Positions 1,342 through 16,287 of a DNA stretch of 64,000 nucleotides are shown here, piece after piece (position 1 is the stretch's first letter; the number at the start of each line of letters is the position of its first letter). The stretch lies in the NCBI GenBank assembly GCA_964553135.1, contig CAZKJL010000001.1:563946-627945 (forward strand). Reading direction: 5' to 3'. The position numbers and the translations under genes were made by a program. The DNA comes from an uncultured Candidatus Peribacteria bacterium (GTDB lineage Bacteria > Patescibacteriota > Gracilibacteria > Peribacterales > Peribacteraceae). A model generated the notes under the pieces. The model saw nothing but the letters and a program-made list of their open reading frames with translations. It was not told the origin of the DNA and searched no databases.

Positions 1342-1435
1342 CAAGAAAACGCTCTTGGCCGATACCCACCCTCATCCCCCGCTGCGGCGCGCTCCATCCC
1401 TTGGGATGTGGCTACTTTCGAATTCAGGCCGTGCT

Positions 1436-1474
1436 TCCTTGTACTCTTTGAATTCTTTGCAGTCCTTGCAATCC
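1436..1474 (+). repeat. 9-bp periodic intergenic array (TCYTTGYAN, about 4 units)
   Basis: TCCTTGTAC|TCTTTGAAT|TCTTTGCAG|TCCTTGCAA|TCC, 17 nt upstream of tRNA-Arg. Same family as the arrays at 12491, 15096 and 16231. Confidence 0.7.
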
Positions 1475-1491
1475 CCGTATACTTCGCCCGC

Positions 1492-1566
1492 GCTCCCGTA
1501 GGTCAATGGATAGACCGCTGGCCTCCGAAGCTGGAGATGCAGGTTCGATCCCTGCCGGGAGCACCA
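1492..1566 (+). tRNA. tRNA-Arg (anticodon CCG), CCA encoded
   Basis: Acceptor GCTCCCG/CGGGAGC, D arm GGTC-AATGGATA-GACC, anticodon loop CTCCGAA, T arm GCAGG-TTCGATC-CCTGC, ACCA. Confidence 0.85.
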
Positions 1567-1660
1567 TTCGACTCGCTACGCTCGCTCGTGGTCCTCGCAC
1601 TTCGGTGCTCGGGCCAATTTCACCGAGTCGAATGACCCTGAGCTTGTCGAGGCCTTCATC

Positions 1661-1688
1661 AAAAAACGCCTCCCTCAGAGGGGAGGCG
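1661..1688 (-). terminator. Rho-independent terminator for the 1717-2688 gene
   Basis: Hairpin CGCCTCCC-TCAGAG-GGGAGGCG followed on the minus strand by a T6 run (A6 at 1661-1666), about 30 nt after the stop codon. Confidence 0.6.
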
Positions 1689-1716
1689 TGTGAGCCCGAT
1701 GTGGGAACTTCTCCGC

Positions 1717-2688
1717 TTACTCGCTCACCACGATGCTCGCGGTGGCGCTTGATTTCAGGTGGTTGTGGTAACCCCAGGTTCCGGTCTTCGTGAAGGTGTA
1801 CTTGTACTCACCCCCGATGAGAATGCTCTGGGACTCGAATCCCGGAAGATCGGTGTGCGTGGGGTACGGGTTGCTGGCGATCAGGAGTTGGCCGTTGCTC
1901 TCGTTCTTGAACGTGACGGTGTCACCCTTCTTCACGTGGAGTACGGAAGGGGAGAAGCCGGTGTCACGGTACGTGACGACGAGCGTGCTCATGGGGTCCG
2001 TAGACGGCTCGCGGTCTTTGCCCGGAGTGCCGTACTTGGCCTTGGCTTCGATGGCCATTTTCACGACTTCGGCACGATTGATCGGAGCGAGCGGACGGAA
2101 CATGCCCGTGGGCTGATCGTTCACGTCCAGGTCACCGGAGATCACTCCTTTGAGTTGCAGAGCTTCGATGGCTTGGCCGTACGTCGTCGCGGTCTTCACG
2201 TCTTTGAAGGGCACGCCGCTGATCGTCGTCTTGAGATCGGCGCGGAATGCGGAGGCGATCATGGAAGCGACTTGAGCGCGCGTTGCGGGGCTGTCGAGAC
2301 GGAGCGTTCCGCTGACGGTGGGGAATGCTTCGGATTTGCCGACGGACACGTAGGCGGAAGCCCAGTGTGTCACGCCGCTGTCGACGACCGCGCCGTACGC
2401 GGCTTCGTCATAACCTGCGGATTCCGATGCGATCTTGAGTGCTTCGGCGATGGTCACGCTTTTCTCCGGACCGAATTTTCCGGTGAGCTTGCCGTTCACG
2501 TCACGGTAGCCCGTGGCGATGTTCGTCTCGGCGGCGGTCTGTACGTAGGTGGCGAACCAGGCCGACTGGGGCACATCGCTGAAGACGACGGTTTGTCCGT
2601 CGACGATCACTTGAATGCCGATGGCACCGGCCATGAGCGGCACGAGCATGCCGGTTATGCCGATGAGGGACAGAAGAGACTTTTTCAT
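1717..2688 (-). CDS. Secreted SLH-domain protein with C-terminal cupredoxin-like domain
   Basis: Signal peptide MKKSLLSLIGITGMLVPLMAGA. Repeated SLH-like segments (FSDVP..W...YV......I..GY; FKDV...TYGQAIEAL...GVISG). C-terminus VKKGDTVTFKNESN...WGYHNH is cupredoxin-like. Confidence 0.7.
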   Translation of the reverse strand: MKKSLLSLIGITGMLVPLMAGAIGIQVIVDGQTVVFSDVPQSAWFATYVQTAAETNIATGYRDVNGKLTGKFGPEKSVTIAEALKIASESAGYDEAAYGAVVDSGVTHWASAYVSVGKSEAFPTVSGTLRLDSPATRAQVASMIASAFRADLKTTISGVPFKDVKTATTYGQAIEALQLKGVISGDLDVNDQPTGMFRPLAPINRAEVVKMAIEAKAKYGTPGKDREPSTDPMSTLVVTYRDTGFSPSVLHVKKGDTVTFKNESNGQLLIASNPYPTHTDLPGFESQSILIGGEYKYTFTKTGTWGYHNHLKSSATASIVVSE

Positions 2689-2796
2689 AGGGAATGGAAG
2701 GAAGTGATGGGGAAGAGATGCACCTGAGACGTCGGCCTCGTGAGTTCATGACAAACCCCGCGTTGCCTCATTGCAAATTTTGTTTCGTGAATTTTT

Positions 2797-3309
2797 TCAG
2801 ATCATGCGGCTGTCGTATGCCCAGTGCAGCACCGCTTGGCGCTGCCTCCTGCGACACGTCAGATTTCCCGGCTCACAATTGTTCCTGATTTGCGCGATGT
2901 GCCTGCGGATGGCGAGCCAGCGCTTGATCTGCCTGTCGTCTTCCTGCGGCATGCGTCTGCCGCGGTAGTAGCGGCAATACCACTGGAACCAGCCGCGCGG
3001 GTCGGCGGGATGGATCCATCCTTTCTTCCGCCATATCGCGAGCGACTGACTCGCATTGATGCCGAAGAAGTTCAGCTTGGGATCATGTTTCTCGTGACAC
3101 AGTTTTGCTTTCTCAAACCAATCGGCCGGAAATTCGTCCCTGCAATCGGTCATGTATTTTCCGCCGAACACACCGAGCGTCAGCATTTGTTTCGGCGTGA
3201 GGTCCGGCGTGAAGCGGGGATCGAAATTCTTTCCTTCGGGCTCCGTGAGCTCGTAGCTGCAGTTTTTCTGCATCAGGTCGTTCACCGTTACTGTCCGTCG
3301 TTTGGTCAT
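2797..3309 (-). CDS. Conserved hypothetical protein
   Basis: Clean 170-aa ORF with non-shadow composition. Distinctive GWIHPADPRGWFQWYCRYYRGRR motif that I cannot assign to a named family. Confidence 0.55.
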   Translation of the reverse strand: MTKRRTVTVNDLMQKNCSYELTEPEGKNFDPRFTPDLTPKQMLTLGVFGGKYMTDCRDEFPADWFEKAKLCHEKHDPKLNFFGINASQSLAIWRKKGWIHPADPRGWFQWYCRYYRGRRMPQEDDRQIKRWLAIRRHIAQIRNNCEPGNLTCRRRQRQAVLHWAYDSRMI

Positions 3310-3397
3310 CGGTGGACATATCGTACATCGCTGACCGCACGTCGTGCCTTGTTTTTTTACGGAGAATCACTAAAGTGCTTTAGTTCTCAACCATTAT

Positions 3398-4825
3398 ATG
3401 AACACACGATCTCCTTGGTTCATCTTCGTCCTCGTTGCGGTCGCGCAGTTCATGGTGGTGCTCGACGTCTGCATCACGAACGTGGCGCTGCCGGCAATCC
3501 AGGCGTCGCTTCATTTCGATACGCACACGCTCCAATGGGTGGTGACGGCGTACGCACTCACGTTCGGCGGATTCTTGCTCCTTGGAGGCCGCGCCGCCGA
3601 TATCTTCGGTCATCGCAGAGTTCTCCTCGTGGGTCTGGGTGCCTTCTCCGTCTTGTCTTTGTTCATCGGTATCTCGGAGTCACCGATGATGCTCATCGTG
3701 CTTCGTGCGTTCCAGGGAGTCGCTGCCGCGCTCATGTCGCCTGCTGCGCTCTCGGTCGTACTCATCACGTTTCCCGAAGGCAAGGAGCGCAACCGCGCGC
3801 TCGGTCACTGGACCACGGTCGCCACGGGCGGAGCCGCCGTCGGCTTACTCCTGGGCGGGGTTCTCACGCAGTACCTCAACTGGCGATGGAACTTCTTCAT
3901 CAACGTGCCCATCGGTGTCCTCATTTCCGTCGCCATCGCCAAGCTTTTGCCCCACGAGAAACAGGAAACGGAACATCATGACTTGGATATTCCGGGTGCG
4001 CTGCTCGTGACGAGCGGCCTCGTGCTTCTCGTCTACGTCGTCAGCCAGGCTCCCGTGTGGGGTTGGACGAACGTCTGGACGCTCTCGGGCGGAGCCGCCG
4101 TCGTTGCGCTTCTTGCGACCTTCGTGTGGAACGAATCGATCAGCAAGCATCCGCTCATGCCGCTCTCCATCTTCAAGATCCGCAACATCACCGGAGCCAA
4201 CCTCATGAGCGCTCCCATTTCCGCGGGATCCTTCGGCATGTTCTTTCTGCTGTCTCTCTACATTCAGGGAGTGCTGAAGTATTCGCCGCTCATGGCCGGA
4301 CTGAGCTTCTTGCCGTTTCCCATCATCCTGGGCTCCCTCTCGCAGCGCATGGCCAGGGGAGTGACGCGCTTCGGATACACGCCGTTCCTCATCGGAGGAC
4401 CGCTCTGCGTCGCCATCGGCATCGCGTGGCTCACGCGCATTCCGGTGCTCGGCAATTACTGGGTCGACATTCTTCCCAGTGTCATCGTCATGCCCGTGGG
4501 CATGGCCATGACGTTCATGCCGCTCATGGTGGCCGCAACGTCGGGTGTCACGCAGAACGAAGCAGGTCTCGCCTCCGGTCTCATCAACACGTCGCAGCAG
4601 ATGGGAGGCGCGCTGGGTCTCGCCATTCTTTCCAGCATCGCCGCGTCGGTCACCGCAAGCAACATGTCACTCGGCGTCATGGAGGCAATGGTGCTCGGGT
4701 ACTCGCGTGCGTTCATGGCCGCGGTCGCCATCATCGTCATGGGTACCGCGATCGGTTTGGCACTCATTCGGAACAAAAAAGCATCGTCGAATGACGCAAG
4801 TCATGCGCACGTGCATGCACTGTAA
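3398..4825 (+). CDS. MFS transporter, DHA2/EmrB-like (14-TMS drug:H+ antiporter type)
   Basis: LDVCITNVALPAIQASL, LLLGGRAADIFGHRRV and about 14 hydrophobic segments over 475 aa. Confidence 0.85.
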   Translation: MNTRSPWFIFVLVAVAQFMVVLDVCITNVALPAIQASLHFDTHTLQWVVTAYALTFGGFLLLGGRAADIFGHRRVLLVGLGAFSVLSLFIGISESPMMLIVLRAFQGVAAALMSPAALSVVLITFPEGKERNRALGHWTTVATGGAAVGLLLGGVLTQYLNWRWNFFINVPIGVLISVAIAKLLPHEKQETEHHDLDIPGALLVTSGLVLLVYVVSQAPVWGWTNVWTLSGGAAVVALLATFVWNESISKHPLMPLSIFKIRNITGANLMSAPISAGSFGMFFLLSLYIQGVLKYSPLMAGLSFLPFPIILGSLSQRMARGVTRFGYTPFLIGGPLCVAIGIAWLTRIPVLGNYWVDILPSVIVMPVGMAMTFMPLMVAATSGVTQNEAGLASGLINTSQQMGGALGLAILSSIAASVTASNMSLGVMEAMVLGYSRAFMAAVAIIVMGTAIGLALIRNKKASSNDASHAHVHAL

Positions 4826-5257
4826 TCAGTTCGTCGAACCGAACGATTGTCGCACGCGATCCAAAATCTCCCCGCGGATCGCGGTTTCATCGGGCTTCGT
4901 CGGTATCTCGGATTGCCGTGCGAGCCGTCGTTGCATCTCGCCTTCGATTCCTGCCAGGAGTACGGGATGCAGCTCGTGCGGCACGTCGCATTTTTTCAGC
5001 AGATCCGCAGCGTCGATGTGCACGTATCCTCCCTGCAGACGTCTCTCTGCGATGATAAGAGTCACCAGTGCGGAAACTGCATCTCGTGTGATGGAAGAAT
5101 CCGCTCGCAGCGAGGAGCCCAATGCGAGAATGTTGATTGCCGCATGCCGAAAATCATCCAGCGCTTTTTGACGAATGACGCTCAAGGACGGTGCGTCGCT
5201 CGGAGTGACGACGGGAGTCGTGCATGCCTTCGCGTCGAAGCGGGGCTTATTGCTCAC
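4826..5257 (-). CDS. Hypothetical protein
   Basis: 143-aa ORF in the only plausible frame between the MFS gene and the low-GC patch. No recognisable motif. Confidence 0.4.
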   Translation of the reverse strand: MSNKPRFDAKACTTPVVTPSDAPSLSVIRQKALDDFRHAAINILALGSSLRADSSITRDAVSALVTLIIAERRLQGGYVHIDAADLLKKCDVPHELHPVLLAGIEGEMQRRLARQSEIPTKPDETAIRGEILDRVRQSFGSTN

Positions 5258-5304
5258 CGTTCCATGGTATCAGATGTGATGTTGATGTTTGTGCGAGTTT
5301 GTTT

Positions 5305-5333
5305 GGAGCTCCTTATGGGAGCTTATTACAGAA
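5305..5333 (+). repeat. Left copy of the 28-bp direct repeat flanking the Mrr-like gene
   Basis: GAGCTCCTTATGGGAGCTTATTACAGAA at 5306-5333. Contains an internal hairpin AGCTCC-TTATG-GGAGCT. Confidence 0.8.
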
Positions 5334-5368
5334 TAGTTCGAATAGTTACTTAGGGGTATATTTTATGC

Positions 5369-5881
5369 ATGTTCACAGATAAACGGTTTCAGAAGCTGAG
5401 GAGTATCGATGACATTGCGACCCTTGATCCTCGTGACTTCGAATGGTTCACCAAGTTTTTACTAGAGAAAAAAGGGCACGTAGGAGTTTGGGTTACGCAG
5501 AAACATGGAAAGCTAAACGGAGATGGAGGAGTAGATGTTGAATCCTCGTTCAATGGCATAAAGGTCTACACACAATGCAAACGTTGGCGCTCTACTTTTC
5601 GTGGAACATTTAAAGGCTTTCTTCCTGTTCGTGTTATTCGAGAGCTCGGAGGATGCATGCTTCGGGATAAAGTGACCAAGGGAATTGTTGTTACGACACT
5701 TAATTTTGAAGGGTTAGATAGAAGCGAGGCAGCAAAAATGAATATCGACCTGATTGGTCGGGAAGAAATTGTTACTGAAATGCTTCGAATCAATCCAAAA
5801 TTCCGTAGTGGATCACGCCTCGGATCGTTCACAATTTTCCGTCAGTTGCTGCTGGCGATTCGATGGTTGATGGTCGATTAG
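5369..5881 (+). CDS. Mrr-like restriction endonuclease domain protein (Mrr_cat)
   Basis: DPRDFEWFTKFLLEKKGH...GDGGVDVES...VYTQCKRW shows the D-(D/E)xK arrangement typical of the Mrr catalytic domain. Lies in a low-GC patch. Confidence 0.7.
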   Translation: MFTDKRFQKLRSIDDIATLDPRDFEWFTKFLLEKKGHVGVWVTQKHGKLNGDGGVDVESSFNGIKVYTQCKRWRSTFRGTFKGFLPVRVIRELGGCMLRDKVTKGIVVTTLNFEGLDRSEAAKMNIDLIGREEIVTEMLRINPKFRSGSRLGSFTIFRQLLLAIRWLMVD

Positions 5882-5885
5882 CTTC

Positions 5886-5913
5886 GAGCTCCTTGTGGGA
5901 GCTTATTGCAGAA
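5886..5913 (+). repeat. Right copy of the 28-bp direct repeat flanking the Mrr-like gene
   Basis: GAGCTCCTTGTGGGAGCTTATTGCAGAA, 26 of 28 identical to 5306-5333. Starts 5 nt after the Mrr stop codon. Confidence 0.8.
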
Positions 5914-6079
5914 AATGCCGAACATTCTCTTTTGGGGTCTGCCCGGCTTCGTCTGCGGACTGAGCCGAGGCATCGGGCGCTTTGATCGGAACAAAGCGAA
6001 ATCTCGGTGCAGCTCCCGAGGGAGTGAAGCCGGATGCCGGAGCTTATGTGGAACGGAACCACTATTTTCAGCTGTGAAT

Positions 6080-6256
6080 ATGGCATATAATCGGCATATG
6101 GTAGATTTTTTTGCGGAACTGTTTGATCTTGTGATGACCCCTTTTCAGGGTAAAAAGAATCATCCACATAAACGATGGCTTATTCTTCTGGGTGCGATTT
6201 TAATGCTTTTGGTATTAATTCTTGCTTCAATCCGACTATACAACATGTATCTATGA
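6080..6256 (+). CDS. Small membrane protein (hypothetical)
   Basis: MAYNRHMVDFF...RWLILLGAILMLLVLILASIRLY has one clear TM helix. The upstream part of the long ORF (5906-) looks non-coding. Start is uncertain (6080 or 6098). Confidence 0.3.
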   Translation: MAYNRHMVDFFAELFDLVMTPFQGKKNHPHKRWLILLGAILMLLVLILASIRLYNMYL

Positions 6257-6258
6257 AT

Positions 6259-6332
6259 TGGAGCGGGTAAGGGGAATCGAACCCCTGTCTGCGCCATGGC
6301 AAGGCGCCGTACTACCATTGTACGATACCCGC
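6259..6332 (-). tRNA. tRNA-Gly (anticodon GCC), CCA encoded
   Basis: The reverse complement gives GCGGGTA...; anticodon stem GCGCC/GGCGC with loop TTGCCAT; T arm AGGGG-TTCGATT-CCCCT; U73 discriminator plus CCA. Confidence 0.9.
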
Positions 6333-6388
6333 AGAAGAAAAAGAGCTAGCAGATGCTACACAAGCGAGTGCGCAGTGGCAAGGCACGC

Positions 6389-6652
6389 TTAGGCGGCTTC
6401 CGTTCGTTCCAGCTCGCGTCGGATGGCTTTGGAAAGGTGCAGGAAGGCCAGGATGGTCACGAGTGCCACCGTGGCGTCATCGGCAAAACCGATGAGCGGC
6501 AGCAGGTCGGGAATGACGTCGATGGGCAGAAGTCCGTACAGCACCCCGCCTCCGATGATCATTTTGGCGGAAAAGGGAGTGTCTTTGTGAAATGCCGCCA
6601 TCCACGCGATGCGAATTTTTTGTCCGAGCGTGAGACTTCGTGCGGGTTCCAT
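6389..6652 (-). CDS. YkvA/DUF1232 family membrane protein
   Basis: GGGVLYGLLPIDVIPDLLPLIGFADDATV is the DUF1232 signature. Confidence 0.75.
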   Translation of the reverse strand: MEPARSLTLGQKIRIAWMAAFHKDTPFSAKMIIGGGVLYGLLPIDVIPDLLPLIGFADDATVALVTILAFLHLSKAIRRELERTEAA

Positions 6653-6699
6653 GCACGGATCATACGCTTGTATACTCAGGACGCATCCCGACTTTTTCT

Positions 6700-7029
6700 A
6701 TGGCCACCAAGCAATCGACCGCCGAGTTTCTCCTGGAGCAAGTCTCCGGTGCCGGCCAGGTCCGCATCCGGAAAATGTTCGGCGAGTACGCCCTCTATTG
6801 CGATGAAAAAGTGGTGGCTCTCATCTGCGATGACAGATTTTTTCTGAAGCCCACCGAGGTCGCCAAGGACTTCCGCGCTTTCGAAGAAGGGCCGCCGTAT
6901 CCGGGATCCAAACCGTTTCTCATCATCGATGAAGATCGCTGGGATGACCGTGATTTCATGAGCGACGTCGTTCGTGCGACCGCCGCAGCGTTGCCCGCAC
7001 CGAAGCCGAAGAAGCTCAAGAAAAAGTGA
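6700..7029 (+). CDS. TfoX/Sxy N-terminal domain protein
   Basis: VRIRKMFGEYALYCDEKVVALICDDRFFLK is the TfoX_N pattern. Internal ATG at 6700 chosen as the start. Confidence 0.7.
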   Translation: MATKQSTAEFLLEQVSGAGQVRIRKMFGEYALYCDEKVVALICDDRFFLKPTEVAKDFRAFEEGPPYPGSKPFLIIDEDRWDDRDFMSDVVRATAAALPAPKPKKLKKK

Positions 7030-7030
7030 T

Positions 7031-7552
7031 TCAGCTTTGTTCACGCCACCAGTCGGGCTCGACGGCTCCCGGAAAGGACGTTCTGCCCCGCATCACCGTT
7101 TCCAGAATATCCGTCGGCCACGAGCCGTCCGGTTCGGCGAGAAGCGCACGCACCCGCTCCGTCGTCATTTCGGCCACTTCCTTCCAGGCTTTTTCACGCT
7201 GCAAAATCCGCAGCATGTCGGCTTCATCGGGATTCACCGTTTCTTCAATGATGGCGCGGATGCGGAGCGCCGAGCTGCTTTTGTATCTCTCGCGTGCATC
7301 GGCGATATGCGTCTGCACGTATTTGCGGGCCCGCATGTTCAGATCCCTGCCTACGATGCGGTGCGCCAGGTCACGTATCTTTCCCGATGCGGCCGAGAGG
7401 CACAGAAATTCGATCTCGCGACGGGTGTAACTGCGGATGACTTCGTCCAATCGTCGATCTTTCACGCCTTGGAGTTCGGCGTCGCCGGTCACGAGGAGTT
7501 CGCTCGCCGTGATCGTCGAGAGCCTCGCTTTAACGGATGGTTTTTCGGTCAT
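7031..7552 (-). CDS. Hypothetical protein
   Basis: ORF with normal composition. Start taken at MTEKPS (7552) to avoid overlap with mgtE. No family recognised. Confidence 0.45.
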   Translation of the reverse strand: MTEKPSVKARLSTITASELLVTGDAELQGVKDRRLDEVIRSYTRREIEFLCLSAASGKIRDLAHRIVGRDLNMRARKYVQTHIADARERYKSSSALRIRAIIEETVNPDEADMLRILQREKAWKEVAEMTTERVRALLAEPDGSWPTDILETVMRGRTSFPGAVEPDWWREQS

Positions 7553-7635
7553 GGGGGATGAGTATACGAATATTTCGTCCGAGCGCAGCTTTTCTTTTCG
7601 TGCGGGCGGGTATACCGTTCGGGTGCCCTTCTTCC

Positions 7636-8967: not shown

Positions 8968-8997
8968 AACGTCCGTGGATCCACGGCGTCCGAAATA

Positions 8998-9026
8998 TTG
9001 AATTTTTGGCTTATTTTTGCTATAAT
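8998..9026 (+). promoter_or_regulatory. Sigma70-like promoter for the pilin-like gene trio
   Basis: TTGAAT (8998-9003), a 17-nt spacer, then TATAAT (9021-9026), in an AT-rich gap after mgtE. Confidence 0.5.
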
Positions 9027-9066
9027 AATCAGATTGGTCCCAACACGTACATTCCTTCGTCGGCAT

Positions 9067-9483: not shown

Positions 9484-10067
9484 AGACCAAGCTCCTCCGC
9501 CTTTCGGCATTCGCTCTCGCGCTTCTCGCGCCGGGTTCGCTCCACGCCCAAGAACTCTGGATTTACTGCGGCAATTTGCCGGGTTGTCCGTCGGGATTCA
9601 CCGAGCGCTTCACGGGCGTGCTCCGGCTGCTCCTCATCCGTCTTCCCGCCTACGTGTACGTTCTCGCCATTCTGTTCATCATGATCGGCGGCGCGTACAT
9701 GGTGCTCAGCGTCGGCGATGCGGAGAAGGTCACCAAAGGGAAAAAGACCATCACGTGGGCGCTCATCGGCATTTTCGTCATGCAATTTTCCGAGGCGCTC
9801 GTGAGTTTCGTCGGACTGGAAGCATCCACCAGAGACAGTGGTGCGGATCTCGTGGAATCCGTGGCAAATACGCTCATCGGATCCATCTTCGATCTTCTGT
9901 ACATCGCCCTGCTCGGAGTCGCCATTTACTGCGGCATGTGGATGGTTCTTTCCTTCGGTAAGGAAGACGAAATGAAGAAAGCGCAGGAAGGCATGTTTTG
10001 GGCGGCCGTCGGAGCCATCGTCATCAACCTTGCCGGAGCTCTCGTTCACGCATTCTCCACTCTCTGA
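9480..10067 (+). CDS. VirB2/TrbC-like small membrane protein, paralog 2
   Basis: Signal peptide MKTKLLRLSAFALALLAPGSLHA. Motif GGAYMVLSVGDAEKVTKGKKTITWALIG. 4-nt overlap with paralog 1. Confidence 0.5.
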   Translation: MKTKLLRLSAFALALLAPGSLHAQELWIYCGNLPGCPSGFTERFTGVLRLLLIRLPAYVYVLAILFIMIGGAYMVLSVGDAEKVTKGKKTITWALIGIFVMQFSEALVSFVGLEASTRDSGADLVESVANTLIGSIFDLLYIALLGVAIYCGMWMVLSFGKEDEMKKAQEGMFWAAVGAIVINLAGALVHAFSTL

Positions 10068-10069
10068 TC

Positions 10070-10423
10070 ATGCGTCGCATTCTCCCCGTCATCCTCGGCA
10101 TCCTCGTTCCGATTCAGGTGTTCGCCTATCGAATCACCGATTCGGGTTGGGATTGTCGCGGCTTCCTCAAGTGCGGCTCATCCACCGATGCCGTCACGCA
10201 AATCACGCTCACCATCATCACCGGAGTCACTGCATTCATCGGCGCGCTCGCCGTCGTCGTCTTCATGTACGGCGCCGTCCGCATGGTCACGTCGCAGGGC
10301 GATGAAGGGAAGGAAGCCGGCAAGAAAGCTCTCATTTGGGCATCCCTTGGCCTCGTTGCCGCCATTCTGACGGGTGCGGTCATCCGCTTCGTCACCGACT
10401 ATCTGTATCTGCTCGGGACCTGA
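10070..10423 (+). CDS. VirB2/TrbC-like small membrane protein, paralog 3
   Basis: Signal MRRILPVILGILVPIQVFA. Motif YGAVRMVTSQGDEGKEAGKKALIWASLG. Confidence 0.5.
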   Translation: MRRILPVILGILVPIQVFAYRITDSGWDCRGFLKCGSSTDAVTQITLTIITGVTAFIGALAVVVFMYGAVRMVTSQGDEGKEAGKKALIWASLGLVAAILTGAVIRFVTDYLYLLGT

Positions 10424-10463
10424 AACGCTTTAAGCTTTTCGCGTTTGGCTCTAAGCTTTCGCC

Positions 10464-12002
10464 ATGTCTCGACAATACGTGACGACGGCAATCGATTACC
10501 CCAATGCGGCTCCGCACATGGGTCACGTTCTTGAGAAAGTTCTCGCCGACGTCATCGTGCGTTGGTTCCGTTTGCGCGGTGACGAGGTCCGGTTCCAAAT
10601 CGGCACCGATGAGCACGGCATCAAAATCCAACAGACCGCCGACAAGGAAAGGCTGACCCCCAAGCAACTCGTGGACCGCAACGTGCCCCTGTTTCAGGAG
10701 CTCTACGGCAAGCTCGGCATTTCGGCCGACGTCTTCATCCGTACGTCGGATCGCACGGTGCATTGGCCCACCGTTCGTGAGCTGTGGCAGCGTCTGGCTT
10801 CGGCCAAGATGCTCGAGAAGCGCACGTACACGGGTTTGTACTGCGCCGGTTGTGAGCGCTTCCTCACGAAGAAGGATCTTGTGGAGGGGAAGTGCGACAT
10901 TCACAAAACGGCGCCGCAAGAAGTGAAGGAAGAAAACTGGTTCTTCGCGCTCTCCAAGGAAACGGAGTGGCTCAAGAAGCTTCTCAAAAGCGACTACAAG
11001 ATCATCCCGCAGTTCCGTGAGAACGAGACATTCGCGCTTCTGGATCAGGGGCTCGAGGACGTGTCGTTCTCGCGTCCCAAGAGCAGCTTGAGCTGGGGCG
11101 TGCCCGTTCCCGACGATGAGAACCAGACGATGTACGTGTGGTGCGACGCACTTACGAACTACATTTCGGGCATCGGATACTTCACCGATCACGAAGAGAA
11201 AAAGTGGTGGGACGATGCGACGGTGACGCACGTCATCGGCAAGGACATCGCCAGGTTCCACGCGCTCATTTGGCCGGCGATGCTCAAGTATGCCGAGGTG
11301 AAAACGCCGGATCAGCTCCTCATCCACGGATTCCTGACGAGCGAAGGTCAGAAGATGAGCAAGTCGCTCGGAAACGTCGTGAAACCCGAGGAAGTCCTGA
11401 CTCATTTCCATGGCAACCCCGATCCGCTTCGCTTTTATCTGAGCGCAGAAGTGCCCGTGGGCAACGACGGTGACTTCAGCTGGAAGCGCATCGATGAGGT
11501 CTACACGTCGAAGCTGGGAAACCAGCTCGGCAACATGCTGAACCGCGTGCTCGTCATGCTCAAGAAAGAAGGAAAAGATCTCGCCATTCCCGCCGACCCC
11601 GAGAGCGTCTCGGAAACCGTGAAGCAGTGGGGCGCATTCGCAACGAAGCTCGATGCGTTTGACGTGCACGGTGCGGTGCAACAAATCGTTCTGAGCGTCG
11701 ACAAAATGAACGCCGCGTTCAACGACGCACAGCCGTGGAAGCAGGAGCCGGACAAGAAAATCGTCACGCTCTCCACGTTCGCCGAGTGCCTCCGTCACGC
11801 CGCGCTCATGCTGCTTCCGTTCATTCCGCAAACGGCGCAGAACATGAGCCGCCAACTCGGCATACCGTACGCCGAGGACATGCTCGAAAAGAACTTCGTT
11901 CTCACCGAAGAAATGAAGGCCTGGGCCGGCATCAAGCAGTGGAAAAAGACGAGCGAACCGAGCATTCTTTTCCCGCCTTTGGAGAAGAAAGAAGCCGCTT
12001 AA
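10464..12002 (+). CDS. metG: Methionine--tRNA ligase
   Basis: The HIGH-type region PHMGHV, KMSKS present as KMSKSLGN, and class I anticodon-binding C-terminus. Confidence 0.95.
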   Translation: MSRQYVTTAIDYPNAAPHMGHVLEKVLADVIVRWFRLRGDEVRFQIGTDEHGIKIQQTADKERLTPKQLVDRNVPLFQELYGKLGISADVFIRTSDRTVHWPTVRELWQRLASAKMLEKRTYTGLYCAGCERFLTKKDLVEGKCDIHKTAPQEVKEENWFFALSKETEWLKKLLKSDYKIIPQFRENETFALLDQGLEDVSFSRPKSSLSWGVPVPDDENQTMYVWCDALTNYISGIGYFTDHEEKKWWDDATVTHVIGKDIARFHALIWPAMLKYAEVKTPDQLLIHGFLTSEGQKMSKSLGNVVKPEEVLTHFHGNPDPLRFYLSAEVPVGNDGDFSWKRIDEVYTSKLGNQLGNMLNRVLVMLKKEGKDLAIPADPESVSETVKQWGAFATKLDAFDVHGAVQQIVLSVDKMNAAFNDAQPWKQEPDKKIVTLSTFAECLRHAALMLLPFIPQTAQNMSRQLGIPYAEDMLEKNFVLTEEMKAWAGIKQWKKTSEPSILFPPLEKKEAA

Positions 12003-12152
12003 AGGCGTTTTTAGCCTACATCTGGCCTTTTCGGTCGATTTGGCGTATCATGAGATCACTCTCTTATCAGCGAGACCCGGAGCAGGGGGCACACATCAGT
12101 GACCACGGCGAGGGGAGGAGCGGGAGAGTCATTACTTCTTTCTTTTTATTTT

Positions 12153-12491
12153 ATGTTCGACCCAATGGCCGATCTCAGTAATCCCAGCAGCGACGATCCG
12201 CTCGCTCCCACGTCCAACTTTGCTCCGGCTCCCCAGTCTCGCCGTCAGGGCGGTGGCGGTGCAGGAGGAGGCATGGGCGGCGGCGCAGGCCGTTACGGTG
12301 AGGAGATTCACTCCATCACCATCCGCGCACGCCAGCGCACGTTCTACATCGATCTGAAGCAGTCCGGCAACGGCAAGTTCTTCAAGGTCTCCGAGAAGTC
12401 CCGCGGCGGACAGAAGTCCACGATCGTCTTCGACGTCGAGGATCTCCCGCACTTCATCAAGGCGCTGCAGGAGATGCAGACGAAGCTGTAG
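12153..12491 (+). CDS. PUR-alpha-like nucleic-acid-binding protein (DUF3276 family)
   Basis: Gly-rich N-terminus followed by IRARQRTFYIDLKQSGNGKFFKVSEKSRGGQKSTIVFDVEDL, the bacterial PUR repeat pattern. Confidence 0.7.
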   Translation: MFDPMADLSNPSSDDPLAPTSNFAPAPQSRRQGGGGAGGGMGGGAGRYGEEIHSITIRARQRTFYIDLKQSGNGKFFKVSEKSRGGQKSTIVFDVEDLPHFIKALQEMQTKL

Positions 12492-12530
12492 GAGTGCAAA
12501 GAATACAAGGAATGCAAAGAGTGCAAGGAA
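12491..12530 (-). repeat. 9-bp periodic intergenic array (TCYTTGYAN family, inverted orientation)
   Basis: The reverse complement reads TCCTTGCAC|TCTTTGCAT|TCCTTGTAT|TCTTTGCAC|TCC. Begins at the stop codon of the PUR-like gene. Confidence 0.7.
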
Positions 12531-12556
12531 CCCGGCTCAGGTCGGGTTCTTTTTTA
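12528..12556 (+). terminator. Rho-independent terminator between convergent genes
   Basis: GAACCCG-GCTCAGGT-CGGGTTC followed by TTTTTT. Confidence 0.7.
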
Positions 12557-12560
12557 TTTC

Positions 12561-13853
12561 TTATTCCGTAGGCACAACGTACCCGTTGATCGTCGGATTT
12601 TGTTGCAGCGTGAGCAGAATGATCTTCGCCGCTTCGGCGCGCGTGATGAAGTTTTCGGGGCGGAACGTACCGTCGCCGTAACCGCTCACGATGTCTCTGG
12701 AGGCTGCTGCGCCGACATACGGATGGAACCAGTCCATCTCGCGCACATCGCCGAAGGAGAGCGTCGTGCCGCTCGTCGACAGGGGATCGAGCTCGGTGGC
12801 GAGGCTCAGGATCTTGAGGGCCTCGGCGCGGTTCACGGGAGCGTCGGGACGGAACGTGCCGTCGTCGTAGCCCGAAACGATCTTGTAGTGTTCCGCGGTA
12901 TAGATCACTTTGCGGCGAAATGCGGCTTCGGGGTTTTCGTTGATCGGCGAATCCTTGCGTACGTCGGAGAACGTCACCGTCGCGTCGTCGGTTCTTGAAC
13001 GAAGTTTCGTGCAGCTCGAGAAGAGCGTCAGTTTCAGGAACTCAAACCGCGTGATGGCTTGATTCGGACGGAACACCACGCGCGAGTTCGGCGTTCCGAA
13101 ATTTTCGTCGTAACCGCCGATGAGCGGCGTCTTGTCCGGGAGAATGTAGACGCCTTGCAGCGCGCGAATGAACGGGAAGCTCCAGTCGCCCTCGTCGATG
13201 TCATCGAACGTTGCCGCGGGGAGCAGGTAACCCAAGCATGCGTTTTCACGCGCGTTTGCCCCTTCGTTTGCTTCCGTCTTGTCGTCGGTGCCATCGCGGT
13301 CGGTGTCCACGGCCATCGGGTTCGTGCCGCGCGCGAGTTCTTCGGCGTTCGTGAGGCCGTCACCGTCGGAGTCATCGGCCCTGGTTTGCGTCACTTGAGT
13401 TTGATCCAAGCCCGTCCGTGCCTCCCATTCGTCCGGAAGTCCGTTGCCGTTGAGATCGGTTCCGAATTTGGAGTCCAGCGGGAACGGATCGACGTTGTCA
13501 TTGATTCCGTCGCCATCCGAGTCCGGCACCTTGGGATCGGTTCCACGCAAAATCTCGTTGCCGTTCACCATGCCGTCGCCGTCACTGTCGAAGCTCAGGT
13601 CGTCGCTTCTGTCGAACGGGTTTCGTTTGGCGGCCACTTCCGATCCGTCGGACTCGCCTCCGCCGTCGGTATCGGCGTCGTAGGGATTCGTTTCGCCTTG
13701 GTCCACCACGCCGTTGCGATTCGCATCTTCCTGAATGTCCGTGAGTCCGTCACCGTCGATGTCTTGAGCCGTGGATGCCGAAAGCGTCGCCGGTACCTCG
13801 GCAAGCAGGAGTACCGCGGTGAGTAGTGCCGCCATTGACGCCCGTGCGTTCAT
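12561..13853 (-). CDS. Secreted protein with thrombospondin type-3-like Ca-binding repeats and C-terminal SLH domains
   Basis: Signal MNARASMAALLTAVLLLAEVPATLSA. Many DxDGDGxxDxxD repeats (DIDGDGLTD, DSDGDGMVN, DSDGDGIND, DSDGDGLTN). C-terminal FSDV/FGDV...VSGYDDGTFRP SLH units. Start overlaps the fmt stop (ATGA). Confidence 0.75.
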   Translation of the reverse strand: MNARASMAALLTAVLLLAEVPATLSASTAQDIDGDGLTDIQEDANRNGVVDQGETNPYDADTDGGGESDGSEVAAKRNPFDRSDDLSFDSDGDGMVNGNEILRGTDPKVPDSDGDGINDNVDPFPLDSKFGTDLNGNGLPDEWEARTGLDQTQVTQTRADDSDGDGLTNAEELARGTNPMAVDTDRDGTDDKTEANEGANARENACLGYLLPAATFDDIDEGDWSFPFIRALQGVYILPDKTPLIGGYDENFGTPNSRVVFRPNQAITRFEFLKLTLFSSCTKLRSRTDDATVTFSDVRKDSPINENPEAAFRRKVIYTAEHYKIVSGYDDGTFRPDAPVNRAEALKILSLATELDPLSTSGTTLSFGDVREMDWFHPYVGAAASRDIVSGYGDGTFRPENFITRAEAAKIILLTLQQNPTINGYVVPTE

Positions 13854-14713
13854 GAAAGGCGTTTGCCGTGAAGGAATGCCTGTCCCGTCATCGGTTTCCC
13901 GCCCGCGGGTTGCAGTGTCACGACATACAGCGTCGTGCCGTCTTTGCACGCCAGGGGCATGGCGCCCGTGACGGCCGTGAGTTCGGTTTGGAGCAGCTTC
14001 TTTCCTTCCCACGTCACGCCGGGCCATGGTGAAAGTGCGCGCACCATGCGGTCGATGGTTTCGGCCGTCATCGAAGCGGGGTCGGCAATCCCGTCCTTTT
14101 TTTCCAGCTTTCCGCAGAACGTCACGTCGGAGTGCATCTGCACTTTCTCAACGAGCGGCTCACTCAGCGTTCGCACCAGCAGTGCCGCACCCGCCGCCGC
14201 CAATTTGTCGTGCAGTGTCGTGAACGTCTCGCGTTCACCCAGCGTGATGCGTTCGGCCGAGAGAATCGGCCCGGCATCCAATTCCTTCACCATGCGCTGC
14301 ACGGTGACGCCCGACTCCTTATCGCCTTGCAGAATTGCATGTTGAATCGGCGATGCGCCGCGGAGCTTCGGGAGGAGTGATGCGTGCACGTTCACGGGTG
14401 CGATCTTCGGGAAACTCAGTACCTCGTCGGACAGGATTTGTCCGTACGACACCACTACCAAGAAATCCGCGGACGAACATGCGGCCTTGATGCTCGTGAA
14501 TTCGGCATTCAGCTTCTCCGGCTGCAAGACGGGAACCTTCAGGGCCTCGGCCGCCACTTTCACGGGAGGCGGCGTGAGTGCTTGTTTGCGTCCCACGGGT
14601 CTGTCCGGCTGCGTCACCACAAGTTTCACGTCGAACCGCTCATCGGCTGCCAATGCTTGCAGGCATGGAACGGCGAATGCCGAAGTGCCGAGAAAAACGA
14701 CGGATGAAGACAT
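13850..14713 (-). CDS. fmt: Methionyl-tRNA formyltransferase
   Basis: VVFLGTSAFAVPCL...VVTQPDRPVGRK...NVHASLLPKLRGASPIQ are canonical Fmt motifs. Confidence 0.9.
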   Translation of the reverse strand: MSSSVVFLGTSAFAVPCLQALAADERFDVKLVVTQPDRPVGRKQALTPPPVKVAAEALKVPVLQPEKLNAEFTSIKAACSSADFLVVVSYGQILSDEVLSFPKIAPVNVHASLLPKLRGASPIQHAILQGDKESGVTVQRMVKELDAGPILSAERITLGERETFTTLHDKLAAAGAALLVRTLSEPLVEKVQMHSDVTFCGKLEKKDGIADPASMTAETIDRMVRALSPWPGVTWEGKKLLQTELTAVTGAMPLACKDGTTLYVVTLQPAGGKPMTGQAFLHGKRLS

Positions 14714-14771
14714 CGAAAAAGATTGTAGCGTAATTCCGTCGGCGCATCGTTTCAGGTAGTATGGTCACTCC

Positions 14772-15092
14772 ATGAGTCACCGTTCCGTCCAGCTCGCCGG
14801 TATGATTCGCACGACGCTCGCGCGCACCGCGCTTGAGATCCCGCCGAACAAGGCGAAGGTGGTGAGCGTCACCGACGTGGAGTTGAGTGCCGATTTGGCG
14901 TATGCCGATATCTCGGTGAGCGCCATCGAAGGCGTGGAACACGCCGTGGCCTACTTCAAGTCACGCGGCAAAGAACTGCGCTCCATGCTCGCAAAACAGC
15001 TCACCACGTACACGGTTCCGGTTCTGCGGTTCCACGTTGATACGAGCGGGGAGAAGGCGGCGAGGATCGATAAGCTCATAGATTCTTTGTAG
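14772..15092 (+). CDS. rbfA: Ribosome-binding factor A
   Basis: 106 aa. VSVTDVELSADLAYADISVS...VPVLRFHVD is the RbfA pattern. Confidence 0.85.
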   Translation: MSHRSVQLAGMIRTTLARTALEIPPNKAKVVSVTDVELSADLAYADISVSAIEGVEHAVAYFKSRGKELRSMLAKQLTTYTVPVLRFHVDTSGEKAARIDKLIDSL

Positions 15093-15095
15093 AAC

Positions 15096-15182
15096 GGATT
15101 GCAAGGACTGCAACGCAAGCAAGGATTGCAAGGAACTCTTTTTTCCTTGCACTCGTTGCATTCCTTGCATTCTTTGCAATCC
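15096..15182. repeat. Inverted pair of 9-bp periodic arrays forming a long imperfect hairpin
   Basis: Left arm GGATTGCAAGGACTGCAACGCAAGCAAGGATTGCAAGGAA, loop CTCTTTTT, right arm TCCTTGCAC|TCGTTGCAT|TCCTTGCAT|TCTTTGCAA|TCC, followed by TGATTTTTAT. Starts 4 nt after the rbfA stop. Confidence 0.75.
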
Positions 15183-15268
15183 TGATTTTTATAACGAAAC
15201 AATCCAAACGTTTTTGACAGCTCAACTGGGTTGAGCCCGATGTTTCCCGTGACTACACTCCGTCCCTT

Positions 15269-16231
15269 ATGTTCGATGCGTCGCTCGCTTCTCAGGCACT
15301 CAAAACTCTCCAGGGAGCCAAGCGACTGAAGTGCGTGTGTCACCGCAATCCGGACGGTGATGCCATCGGTGCCGTCACGGGCGTTGCGCAGCTTCTGGAA
15401 GCCAATCTCCCGAACATTCCGGTGGAGCTGTACTGCGTCGATCCGTCGCCGCCGCTCTTCCATTTTTTGCACTCGGTGCATCGCATCAAGCAGGACCTCA
15501 AACCCGAAGAAGGGGACGTGTTTGTCTTCGTCGATTCGGCCGAGCCCAAGCTCACCGAGTACGACGTGCAATTTCCGCAGATTTTCGGCGGCACGTGGCC
15601 GTCGGTGTGCATCGATCACCACCAAACCAATCCGCGGTACGGAACCGTGAACATCGTCATTCCCGATGCGTCGTCCACCTGCGAAATCCTCGTGGCATTC
15701 GCCGATGCGCTCCGCTGGCCCATCACTCCGGATATCGCAACATCGCTCCTGACGGGTGTGTACACCGACACGGGCGGCCTCGTGCACAGCAATACCACGT
15801 CACGCGTGTATCGCACGGTTTCGCGCTTGCTGCGTGCCGGAGCCAGGCACCATGCTGTCGTTTTCAACGTCTTTCGTTCCATCAAACTTTCCACGCTGCG
15901 CTTGTGGGGCAGAGTGCTCGAGAAAATCAGCGTGACGGACGAAGGCGGTGCCATCTCGGCGCTCACCGAGAGCGACTTCAAGGCCACGGGTGCCGATTAC
16001 TCGGAGCTCACGGGCGCCATCGATTACGTGAACGCGGTACCCGGCATGAAATTTTCGCTCGTGCTCGCCGAACGTCAGGGCAAAGTGAAGGGTTCCATTC
16101 GCACACTCCGCGATGACGTCGATGTTTCCAAAATGGCGGCGCAACTCGATGGCGGCGGGCACAGAAAAGCCGCCGGGTTCGCGGTCACGGGAAAGCTGGT
16201 GCCGGAGGTGCGGTGGAAAGTGCAACAATAG
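15269..16231 (+). CDS. DHH/DHHA1 family phosphoesterase (NrnA-like oligoribonuclease/pAp phosphatase)
   Basis: CHRNPDGDAIGA, IDHHQTN, and C-terminal GGGHRKAAGF. Confidence 0.85.
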   Translation: MFDASLASQALKTLQGAKRLKCVCHRNPDGDAIGAVTGVAQLLEANLPNIPVELYCVDPSPPLFHFLHSVHRIKQDLKPEEGDVFVFVDSAEPKLTEYDVQFPQIFGGTWPSVCIDHHQTNPRYGTVNIVIPDASSTCEILVAFADALRWPITPDIATSLLTGVYTDTGGLVHSNTTSRVYRTVSRLLRAGARHHAVVFNVFRSIKLSTLRLWGRVLEKISVTDEGGAISALTESDFKATGADYSELTGAIDYVNAVPGMKFSLVLAERQGKVKGSIRTLRDDVDVSKMAAQLDGGGHRKAAGFAVTGKLVPEVRWKVQQ

Positions 16232-16287
16232 GAGTGCAAGGATCGTTGTCTTCCTTGTATTCGTTGTATTCCTTGAATTCCTTATCC
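16231..16287 (+). repeat. 9-bp periodic intergenic array (TCYTTGYAN family)
   Basis: GGAGTGCAAGGA then TCGTTGTCT|TCCTTGTAT|TCGTTGTAT|TCCTTGAAT|TCCTTATCC. Fills the gap between the convergent nrnA-like and virB4-like stop codons. Confidence 0.7.

What the first reader, a model, noticed from the sequence alone, without database searches (positions are those of the whole stretch)
1436..16287. Family of 9-bp periodic intergenic arrays (TCYTTGYAN)n placed right after stop codons
Arrays of 4-5 units occur at 1436-1474, 12491-12530 (inverted), 15096-15182 (two arrays in inverted orientation forming a hairpin of about 40 bp per arm) and 16231-16287. Each starts within a few nt of a stop codon, or lies just before a tRNA, and each ends in TCC. 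Most lack the T-run of a simple terminator. The exceptions are a separate canonical terminator next to the 12491 array and a T-rich tail after the 15096 hairpin. I saw no copy inside the foreign island, which fits a host-specific REP/MITE-like or protein-binding element. The 9-bp phase is unusual for REP elements.
Basis: seen in the sequence. Interest (0 to 1): 0.6.

Follow-up and report, generated by a model that had tools for sequence, protein, structure and literature searches.

The report
Nine-base repeat arms of IVS-like cassette

Summary
(TCYTTGYAN)4-TCC arrays lie at all four places, with 15 two-unit hits against 0.31 expected. The window belongs to a 1.36-Mb Peribacteria genome. That genome holds 50 such loci: 20 foldback hairpins, about 29 single arms and one full cassette.

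In the full cassette (C1:92276-92743) the same arrays bracket a PF05635 gene (S23p/Avd-like four-helix bundle). All four PF05635 genes of the genome are bracketed by inverted tandem-word arrays, each with its own word. Every hairpin has the purine-rich (GGA) arm first, 44 to 0 over the two 9-mer families. Arms have a fixed length of four units plus TCC. The GGA arm starts 0-15 nt after a stop codon.

Comparison with two congeners shows:
- one precise insertion directly after a TAG;
- indels of whole units;
- 17 of 22 orthologous sites occupied, but mostly by a different word family;
- the most abundant of the three counted families in each genome matching the arms of its resident cassette at one syntenic site.

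A sister 9-mer hairpin sits inside the 23S rRNA gene as a true intervening sequence.

Most copies are not canonical terminators, and the two arms do not co-vary. Best reading: gene-less and single-arm derivatives of an IVS-like selfish cassette. The way it moves is not known.

The parts
1436..1474 (+). Single arm (TCC-type on the + strand): 4 units plus TCC, 17 nt upstream of tRNA-Arg
   Evidence: unit count
1311..1435 (+). 'famB' dispersed repeat (about 110-125 nt, about 5 copies in the genome) that adjoins the 1436 array. It begins with a perfect 14-bp mini-hairpin (GTCACTTCTTTGTC CGC GACAAAGAAGTAAC) whose arms resemble one repeat unit
   Evidence: no Rfam match
12492..12530 (-). Single arm. 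The GGA-rich strand is the sense strand of the PurA-like gene, and the stop TAG 12489-12491 is fused in register (TAG GAG TGC AAA GAA...). The same arm is present in congener G002 with one unit (9 nt) fewer
12531..12556 (+). Separate canonical intrinsic terminator (CCCGGCTCAGGTCGGG plus T-run), conserved in G002; not part of the repeat
15093..15185 (.). 93-nt gene-less foldback element. The 5' arm is 15096-15134 (GGA-type) and the 3' arm is 15143-15183 (TCC-type). It lies directly after the rbfA TAG and is precisely absent from G002 (TAG|TTTTT)
16232..16281 (.). Foldback with a truncated 5' arm (16232-16243, GGAGTGCAAGGA) and a full 3' arm (16243-16281). It fills the gap between the convergent nrnA-like and VirB4-like stops. 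Contigs of a wastewater strain carry 27 nt (3 units) more in the 5' arm. G002 and G001 carry hairpins of other word families at the same site

Best explanation
The arrays are the terminal arms of a small, IVS-like selfish cassette. Its complete form is: stop codon, then a purine-rich arm (N-TRC-AAR-GA)x4 + GGA, then a PF05635 gene (S23p/Avd-like four-helix bundle), then a pyrimidine-rich arm (TCYTTGYAN)x4 + TCC.

Most copies have lost or never had the gene. They exist as 75-nt foldback hairpins or as single arms, in the way MITEs relate to a transposon. They lodge immediately 3' of stop codons and are replaced there by copies of whichever word family the resident cassette carries.

Shown here:
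- the arm-gene-arm architecture;
- the fixed chirality and fixed arm length;
- insertion, deletion and unit-number polymorphism;
- conserved occupancy of sites with turnover of the word family;
- agreement between the most abundant of the three counted families and the arms of the resident cassette.

Inferred, not shown:
- the PF05635 protein recognises the phased words of its own arms, on DNA or RNA, and is needed for spread;
- in transcripts the long imperfect stem is cut by RNase III as in rRNA intervening sequences, so that at gene ends the element is nearly neutral or sets the mRNA 3' end.

The catalytic step of copying is unknown. The cassette encodes no recognisable transposase, and the genome has no reverse transcriptase.
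For: 1. A PF05635 gene at G000 C1:92348-92662 is bracketed by this finding's arrays at 92276-92320 and 92708-92743.

2. All 4 PF05635 genes of the genome have inverted tandem-word arms, each with its own word: a 9-mer, a heptamer, another 9-mer and an approximately 8-mer. So do 12 homologues in related genomes and many in other phyla.

3. An orthologous pair across genera keeps a similar word (C3:25549 and L065), while the four paralogues within this genome differ.

4. Chirality: 19 of 19 fam1 hairpins and 25 of 25 fam2 hairpins have the GGA arm first, as in the cassette.

5. Arm length is fixed at 4 units plus TCC in 69 of 87 and 74 of 96 arrays. A freely slipping microsatellite would not behave this way.

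6. Position: 35 of 68 arrays start 20 nt or less after a same-strand stop codon in GGA-sense. Only 2 are this close to a gene on the other strand. By gap type the loci are convergent 22, tandem 25, divergent 3, against a background of 237, 629 and 237.

7. Mobility:
- the 93-nt hairpin is precisely absent at TAG|TTTTT in G002;
- four further sites are empty in G002;
- there is a 9-nt unit indel and a 27-nt three-unit indel.

8. 17 of 22 orthologous sites are occupied in G002, mostly by a heptamer GGTAGCG hairpin.

9. The cassette at the syntenic X|recJ site has different arms in each congener, and the pattern counts follow the arms:
- G000: fam1 arms; counts for fam1, fam2, heptamer = 135, 79, 4;
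- G001: fam2 arms; counts 0, 27, 3;
- G002: GGTAGCG arms; counts 29, 24, 189.

10. A gene-less fam2 hairpin forms the tip of a 165-nt insertion in a 23S rRNA hairpin loop. RNase III is encoded.
Against: - No biochemical or expression data exist; there are no RNA runs.
- PF05635 has no known catalytic activity. No consistent target-site duplication was found: one site has TCTAG...TCTAA against a single CCTAA, the others have none.
- G002 carries 29 fam1 hits but no close fam1-type PF05635 gene (best 41% identity). G000 carries 79 fam2 hits without a fam2 cassette. Copies therefore persist without the cognate gene, or the gene is missing from the draft assembly.
- The match between the most abundant family and the resident cassette rests on three genomes only, and only three word families were counted.
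- fam1 has a resident gene yet has more single arms (31 of 65) than fam2 (13 of 49). That is not what a simple 'younger family' model predicts.
- Conserved site occupancy could also mean that a hairpin is needed at those sites.
Confidence: 0.6

Rival explanations
1. REPIN-like elements mobilised by the genome's single RAYT-like HUH (Y1) transposase. On this reading the hairpins are the replicating units, the single arms are decayed copies, and the PF05635 cassettes are passengers or merely share the hairpins.
For: One PF01797 match lies at C2:298223-298402 (30.7 bits, above the cut-off). Its ORF has HUH (PDHIHLL) and Y...DYPWSS motifs, and its stop codon is followed after 4 nt by a fam1 hairpin (C2:297940-298023). 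Hairpin size (about 75 nt), extragenic position, the excess in convergent gaps and decay to single arms resemble what is described for REPINs (own knowledge: Bertels and Rainey 2011).
Against: Of 43 homologues in metagenomes, 1 has a tandem-word array in its flanks. The 67%-identical syntenic homologue (L090, after rpsU) has no hairpin. The G002 orthologue is flanked by a hairpin of an unrelated word (heptamer). It is hard to see how one conserved enzyme would switch specificity, whereas the PF05635 proteins do differ (41-59% identity). The arms are phased words, not a short palindrome.
Confidence: 0.15
2. Host-selected 3'-end RNA elements (bidirectional terminators, or stabilisers against 3' exonucleases) that are kept because a hairpin is needed after these genes. 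The PF05635 genes would simply insert into their loops.
For: There are strong folds (mean -34 kcal/mol against -14 for shuffles; z = -9). The elements sit directly after stop codons and are enriched in convergent gaps. 17 of 22 sites stay occupied in G002 although the sequence family changes. In the shared single arm, the three substitutions between G000 and G002 all fall on variable positions.
Against: Only 6 of 35 hairpins have a T-run. The two arms are barely more complementary at variable positions than arms taken from different loci (0.547 against 0.492; 0.693 against 0.640), so there is no compensatory maintenance of the stem. About 29 loci are single arms that cannot fold. The 12492 arm needs a separate terminator next to it. 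Five sites are empty in G002 with the genes intact. The word tracks the PF05635 subfamily.
Confidence: 0.15
3. Arrays of CsrA-binding sites (repeated A(N)GGA motifs) that titrate or recruit CsrA on 3' UTRs.
For: A CsrA gene is present (C2:379146-379292, 70 bits). The sense strand carries AAGGA/AAAGA every 9 nt. C and T tend to alternate at unit position 3 (94 alternating against 44 non-alternating neighbours), which spaces the GGA motifs about 18 nt apart.
Against: In hairpins the GGA motifs are base-paired rather than in loops. Hairpins of unrelated words (GGTAGCG, AAGACNN, GTGCGAAA) occupy the same sites and the same kind of cassette. The link to PF05635 explains more of the data.
Confidence: 0.04
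4. Translated sequence: read-through tails (E-C-K)n after TAG, or small Cys-rich or hydrophobic peptides.
For: One frame of each strand is always open: (C/Y)-K-(E/D) on one and (L/F)-(A/V)-(I/V/L/F) on the other. TAG is often fused in register. A LysRS-HD open frame reads through a hairpin in both G000 and G002.
Against: The register relative to the upstream stop is not constant (21 in that frame against about 16 in the other two). The ATG in the adjoining 'famA' repeat is not conserved. Sister families with other periods (7, 8) cannot keep a frame.
Confidence: 0.03

Closest known systems
23S rRNA intervening sequences carrying an S23p ORF (Coxiella burnetii, Leptospira; PMC4990558)
   Same: A small element bordered by terminal inverted repeats that form a long stem around a PF05635 ORF. 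It is regarded as selfish and is sporadically distributed. Here a gene-less sister hairpin lies inside the 23S rRNA gene itself, and RNase III is encoded.
   Different: The copies in this finding lie after protein-gene stop codons, not in rRNA. The arms are phased tandem words of fixed number. Most copies lack the gene or have one arm only. They are numerous (50 plus about 35 loci in 1.36 Mb) and turn over between congeners.
REP / REPIN elements with their RAYT transposase (own knowledge: Nunvar 2010; Bertels and Rainey 2011)
   Same: Extragenic hairpin doublets of about 70-110 nt with decayed singlets, lineage-specific families, and an excess at gene 3' ends. One RAYT-like gene is present and abuts a hairpin.
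   Different: The arms are tandem 9-mers, not a short GC-rich palindrome with a GTAG foot. Homologues of the RAYT-like gene are not flanked by such arrays. The gene found inside the arms is PF05635, not a transposase.
Cyanobacterial STRR heptamer repeats and long simple-sequence repeats with 5-11-nt units (own knowledge: Mazel 1990; Mrazek 2007)
   Same: Short tandem words repeated a few times, dispersed in intergenic DNA, often downstream of genes, with unknown function.
   Different: Here the period is 9, the number of units is fixed, the arrays pair as inverted arms with fixed chirality, and they bracket a specific gene family.
Avd of diversity-generating retroelements (PDB 4DWL; PMC10053308)
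   Same: The protein in the cassette belongs to the same fold and family. The best solved relative is 2GSC, E = 4e-28, with 5 chains in the entry. Its homology to Avd is noted in PMC10053308. In both cases the protein is a small accessory partner of a nucleic-acid copying process.
   Different: The genome has no reverse transcriptase, and there is no template or variable repeat pair.

Membership tests
IVS-like S23p (PF05635) cassette | Terminal inverted repeats that form a long stem | tested here: met
   The hairpin at 15093-15185 folds at -45.8 kcal/mol, z = -9. 35 hairpins have a mean of -34 kcal/mol against -14 for shuffles.
IVS-like S23p (PF05635) cassette | The arms enclose a PF05635 ORF | tested here: met
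   Met for one fam1 copy: C1:92276-92743 encloses a PF05635 gene scoring 112 bits. The four window copies are gene-less derivatives.
IVS-like S23p (PF05635) cassette | Located inside the 23S rRNA gene | tested here: not met
   No fam1 copy lies in rRNA. A sister fam2 hairpin (C3:46472-46552) is the tip of a 165-nt insertion in a 23S hairpin loop near Rfam model position 2240.
IVS-like S23p (PF05635) cassette | The stem is cut by RNase III in the transcript | not testable with these tools
   An RNase III gene is present. No RNA runs are available.
MITE (non-autonomous transposon derivative) | Gene-less copies share their ends with a gene-bearing copy and are polymorphic for presence | tested here: met
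MITE (non-autonomous transposon derivative) | Target-site duplication | tested here: inconclusive
   One site shows TCTAG...TCTAA against a single CCTAA. The rbfA site and two others show none.
MITE (non-autonomous transposon derivative) | The cognate element encodes a transposase | tested here: not met
   The only ORF between the arms is PF05635.
REP/REPIN-RAYT | The RAYT gene is flanked by its own REP sequences | tested here: inconclusive
   In G000 a fam1 hairpin lies 4 nt after the stop of the RAYT-like gene. Only 1 of 43 homologues elsewhere has word arrays in its flanks, and the 67%-identical syntenic homologue has none.
REP/REPIN-RAYT | The unit is a short (20-40 nt) imperfect GC-rich palindrome | tested here: not met
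   A single arm does not fold (-7.4 kcal/mol). The arms are tandem 9-mers.
Intrinsic terminator | GC-rich stem followed by a T-run | tested here: not met
   6 of 35 hairpins have a T-run. The 12492 arm has a separate terminator beside it.
Diversity-generating retroelement | Reverse transcriptase present | tested here: not met
   No PF00078 match in the genome.
CsrA-binding RNA | GGA motifs presented in loops or single-stranded stretches; CsrA present | tested here: inconclusive
   A CsrA gene is present. GGA motifs are exposed in single arms but paired in hairpins. Binding cannot be tested here.

The most novel reading that the evidence does not exclude
PF05635 (S23p/Avd-like) proteins are the sequence-specific recognition subunits of an undescribed class of mobile element. 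On this reading each protein subfamily reads the phased words of its own arms. It directs the copying of arm-loop-arm units into sites directly 3' of stop codons or into existing hairpins, overwriting older families. The catalysis might come from a host enzyme such as the single RAYT-like HUH protein. Classical 23S rRNA intervening sequences would then be the special case in which such an element lands in rRNA.
Probability: 0.25. Interest if true: 0.9.

Novelty: new variant of a known kind. Interest (0 to 1): 0.7.

Why it matters
PF05635 proteins ('23S rRNA intervening-sequence protein', 'four helix bundle protein') are found across many bacterial phyla and have had no assigned function since they were described in rRNA intervening sequences; PMC11270868 still calls the domain functionally uncharacterised.

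This small genome, together with two congeners, offers a natural experiment. One syntenic cassette carries three different protein-plus-arm alleles. In each genome, the most abundant of the three counted gene-end hairpin families matches the resident allele. Orthologous sites stay occupied while the word family changes.

That turns a vague 'selfish element' label into testable claims: specific binding of each protein to its own phased words, and dependence of hairpin spread on the protein.

There are also practical consequences.
- These elements break short-read assemblies. Contigs in the sequencing runs end at the arrays.
- They can be read through as coding sequence, as in the LysRS-HD frame.
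- They create false ORF extensions.

Tried and rejected
- Read-through or peptide coding was considered because two frames are always open and TAG is often in register. It was rejected because the register is not constant and the candidate ATG is not conserved.
- CsrA sponge: CsrA is present, but unrelated words occupy the same sites and cassettes.
- Known RNA families: nothing was found in the window, in famA or in famB.
- Retro-copying: there is no reverse transcriptase.
- A rule of 'five cores per arm matching a pentamer' fits the Peribacteria families, and 2GSC has 5 chains. Arms around homologues in other phyla have 5-9 units, so the rule is not general.
- RAYT as the driver: flanks of 43 homologues were checked, and only 1 has a word array.
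- RNA-seq: only DNA metagenomes hold this organism.
- Co-occurrence of fam1 arrays with a fam1-type PF05635 gene fails in G002. G002 is a 40-contig draft, so this is weak evidence either way.
- Literature searches for the tandem-word arm architecture found no description of it.
Full report
**1. The observation**

- Each array is (TCYTTGYAN)x4 followed by TCC.
- The two-unit pattern gives 15 hits in the window against 0.31 expected.
- Tandem Repeats Finder reports periods of 9 and 18.
- The flanking genes were identified by Pfam: TatD, MetRS, a PurA-like protein, RbfA, an NrnA-like DHH protein, a VirB4-like ATPase and SLH proteins.
- The arrays at 12492, 15093 and 16232 begin 0-3 nt after a TAG. 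The array at 1436 lies 17 nt before tRNA-Arg.

**2. The family in the genome**

The window is C1:563946-627945 of a 1.36-Mb, 57% G+C genome in 4 contigs. Earlier notes of this scan name it as Peribacteria, a candidate-phyla-radiation lineage, and the nearest public homologue of its cassette protein is indeed from a Peribacteria MAG.

- I found 68 strand-specific arrays in 50 loci.
- Period 9 is a strong outlier among periods 5-15, with 102 regions against 2-23.
- There are two sister 9-mer families. In sense orientation they are fam1, AAR-GAA-TRC (this finding), and fam2, AAR-GAA-ACC/TCC. Intermediates of the form AAGGAATCC also occur.
- Arms have exactly 4 full units plus TCC in 69 of 87 (fam1) and 74 of 96 (fam2) arrays. 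This gives five TCN cores 9 nt apart.
- At unit position 3, C and T tend to alternate between neighbouring units, 94 against 44. This explains the 18-nt period.

**3. What the arrays belong to**

I tested that lead for fam1.
- Two fam1 arrays 387 nt apart (C1:92276-92320 and 92708-92743) enclose a 122-aa ORF with the PF05635 signature.
- The genome has four PF05635 genes. Each is bracketed by inverted tandem-word arrays with a different word: the fam1 9-mer, the heptamer AAGACNN, the 9-mer GGAAGGTGT, and an approximately 8-mer GTGCGAAA.
- Twelve homologues in related genomes are all bracketed in the same way. Many of the 42 homologues from other phyla also are, with periods 6-9.
- The ortholog of C3:25549 in another genus (L065) keeps a GGTAGGT-type 9-mer, whereas the four paralogues within this genome differ from each other. 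In these cases the word follows the protein subfamily, not the host.
- The closest solved structure is 2GSC, with E = 4e-28 and five chains in the entry. PMC10053308 notes the homology of this family to the DGR accessory protein Avd.

**4. Anatomy rules**

- Every hairpin has the purine-rich arm first: fam1 19 to 0 and fam2 25 to 0. This is the order found in the gene-bearing cassette.
- In GGA-sense, 35 of 68 arrays start 20 nt or less after the stop of a same-strand gene. Most of the rest are the distal arms of hairpins.
- The stop codon is often fused in register, as in TAGGA-N-TGCAA.
- By gap type, the loci are convergent 22, tandem 25 and divergent 3, against a background of 237, 629 and 237. 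My gene calls are rough, so these numbers are approximate.
- Hairpins are about 75 nt long and fold well: mean -34 kcal/mol against -14 for shuffles. Only 6 of 35 are followed by a T-run.
- The two arms of a hairpin are hardly more complementary at the variable positions than arms from different loci: 0.547 against 0.492 (p = 0.05) and 0.693 against 0.640 (p = 0.02). The stem is therefore not maintained by compensatory change.
- Within fam2, the left and right arms carry different, family-wide unit variants. This points to copying from a master sequence rather than local slippage.

**5. Comparison with congeners and strains**

G002 has about 88% nucleotide identity and is syntenic. G001 has about 77% protein identity.

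*Window sites*
- (a) The 93-nt hairpin at 15093-15185 is precisely absent in G002, where the sequence reads TAG|TTTTT. There is also no array at that junction in G001.
- (b) The 12492 arm is shared with G002, which has one unit fewer. The three substitutions all fall on variable positions.
- (c) The nrnA|virB4 gap holds a fam1 element in G000, an approximately 8-mer GTGCGAAA-type hairpin in G002 and a GTAGTAA heptamer hairpin in G001.
- (d) Contigs of a wastewater strain carry three more units in the 5' arm at 16231. The G000 copy is therefore a hairpin with a truncated arm.

*Genome-wide sites*
- (e) I compared 22 further orthologous sites.
  - 17 are occupied in G002. Most hold a GGTAGCG heptamer hairpin, two hold fam2 and one holds fam1.
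  - Four are empty, and one holds an unrelated 780-nt insert.
  - At C2:236946 the 75-nt insert is flanked by TCTAG and TCTAA where G002 has a single CCTAA. Other sites show no duplication.

*The syntenic cassette*
- (f) The cassette between gene X and recJ sits at the same site in all three genomes, behind a conserved TAG-NGGAAAAGNC-GG spacer. Its arms and protein differ in each genome:
  - G000: fam1 arms.
  - G001: fam2 arms, with a protein 59% identical that carries one in-frame TGA.
  - G002: GGTAGCG arms, with a protein 41% identical.
- Pattern counts for fam1, fam2 and the heptamer are 135, 79, 4 in G000; 0, 27, 3 in G001; and 29, 24, 189 in G002. Among these three counted families, the commonest in each genome is therefore the one on its resident cassette.

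**6. Link to rRNA**

The 23S rRNA gene (C3:45745-48554, - strand) has a 165-nt insertion in a terminal loop near Rfam model position 2240. The insertion folds into one long stem-loop (-86.8 kcal/mol), and its tip is a gene-less fam2 hairpin. So the same kind of hairpin is both a gene-end element and a true rRNA intervening sequence in one genome. RNase III is encoded. The Coxiella IVS has a 28-bp terminal stem cut by RNase III around an S23p ORF (PMC4990558). PF05635 ORFs have been seen in CPR rRNA insertions (PMC11270868).

**7. Mechanism**

The data support a cassette-and-derivative relation and turnover at fixed gene-end sites. They do not show how copies are made.
- There is no reverse transcriptase.
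- The cassette has no transposase.
- One RAYT-like HUH gene exists and happens to be followed by a fam1 hairpin. Its homologues elsewhere are not flanked by word arrays, and its G002 orthologue is followed by a heptamer hairpin.

I take binding of the PF05635 protein to its own phased words as the most likely recognition step. I take RNase III processing as the most likely fate in RNA. Both are inferences.

**8. Rivals**

- A host-selected terminator or stabiliser role fits the conserved occupancy of sites. It does not fit the lack of T-runs, the lack of arm covariation, the many single arms or the empty sites.
- CsrA binding, translation and chance are unlikely.

**9. Novelty**

I found no paper describing tandem-word arms, gene-less hairpins at gene ends, or family turnover for PF05635 cassettes. 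Earlier notes of this scan report the same architecture in other genomes. Those notes are unchecked leads that agree with what I tested here.

New in this report:
- the link of this particular 9-mer family to its own PF05635 gene;
- the chirality and fixed-length rules;
- the three-allele syntenic cassette and its match to the commonest counted family;
- conserved site occupancy with replacement of the family;
- the rRNA copy;
- the RAYT-like gene as a candidate partner.

Noticed in passing
window 1311-1435; genome C1:279000-279237, 385550-385794 and 8 more: Two longer dispersed repeats adjoin single fam1 arms on their TCC-5' side. 'famA' is about 240 nt with 10 copies. It contains a perfect 13-bp hairpin and a terminator-like hairpin flanked by A- and T-runs. 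'famB' is about 110 nt with about 5 copies, one of them in the window. Every copy found so far lies on the + strand of C1. Neither has an Rfam match. They may be non-coding cargo of the same kind of element, or a second element that targets the arrays.
   Followed up: partly
genome C3:39574-41736 (outside the window): A single open frame joins a lysyl-tRNA synthetase to an HD-domain protein through a fam1 hairpin, read as NAKTATTAKNAKSSSQSLPSLQSSQ. In G002 the same junction holds a heptamer hairpin that is also open in frame, and the length difference is 15 nt. The hairpins seem to be tolerated as a translated linker, or they have removed a stop codon.
   Followed up: partly
genome C3:45745-48554 (23S rRNA gene): Besides the 165-nt insertion tipped by a fam2 hairpin, the 23S rRNA gene has an insertion of about 80 nt at model position 1457. 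Between model positions 1302 and 2043 it has about 800 extra nt in total. The content of the extra sequence was not examined.
   Followed up: partly
genome C2:298060-298490 (- strand): A single-copy RAYT-like (IS200/Y1, HUH) gene lies directly after rpsU. It is syntenic in a 67%-identical relative, and in G000 a fam1 hairpin follows 4 nt after its stop. A short array-like remnant (GAAGGAAGGACCAAGG) lies between rpsU and this gene.
   Followed up: partly
genome C2:379146-379292 (- strand): A CsrA homologue (70 bits) is present in this small CPR genome. Its neighbours, for example FliW, were not examined.
   Followed up: no
window 5302-6258 and 7004-7588: Contigs of a related wastewater strain (run X5) skip 955 nt and 583 nt here, the second with 23 other letters in between. 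These are strain-level indels near tRNA-Gly that are unrelated to the arrays.
   Followed up: no
window 12099-12491: The gene whose stop is fused to the 12492 array encodes a PurA/DUF3276-like protein, a family annotated as binding single-stranded nucleic acid. This is probably a coincidence.
   Followed up: no
whole genome: Period 7 also stands out, with 23 regions against 2-9 for the other periods apart from 9. At least part of this is the AAGACNN arms of the PF05635 gene at C1:338348 and a few GGTAGCG hairpins (C1:273967, 367905).
   Followed up: partly
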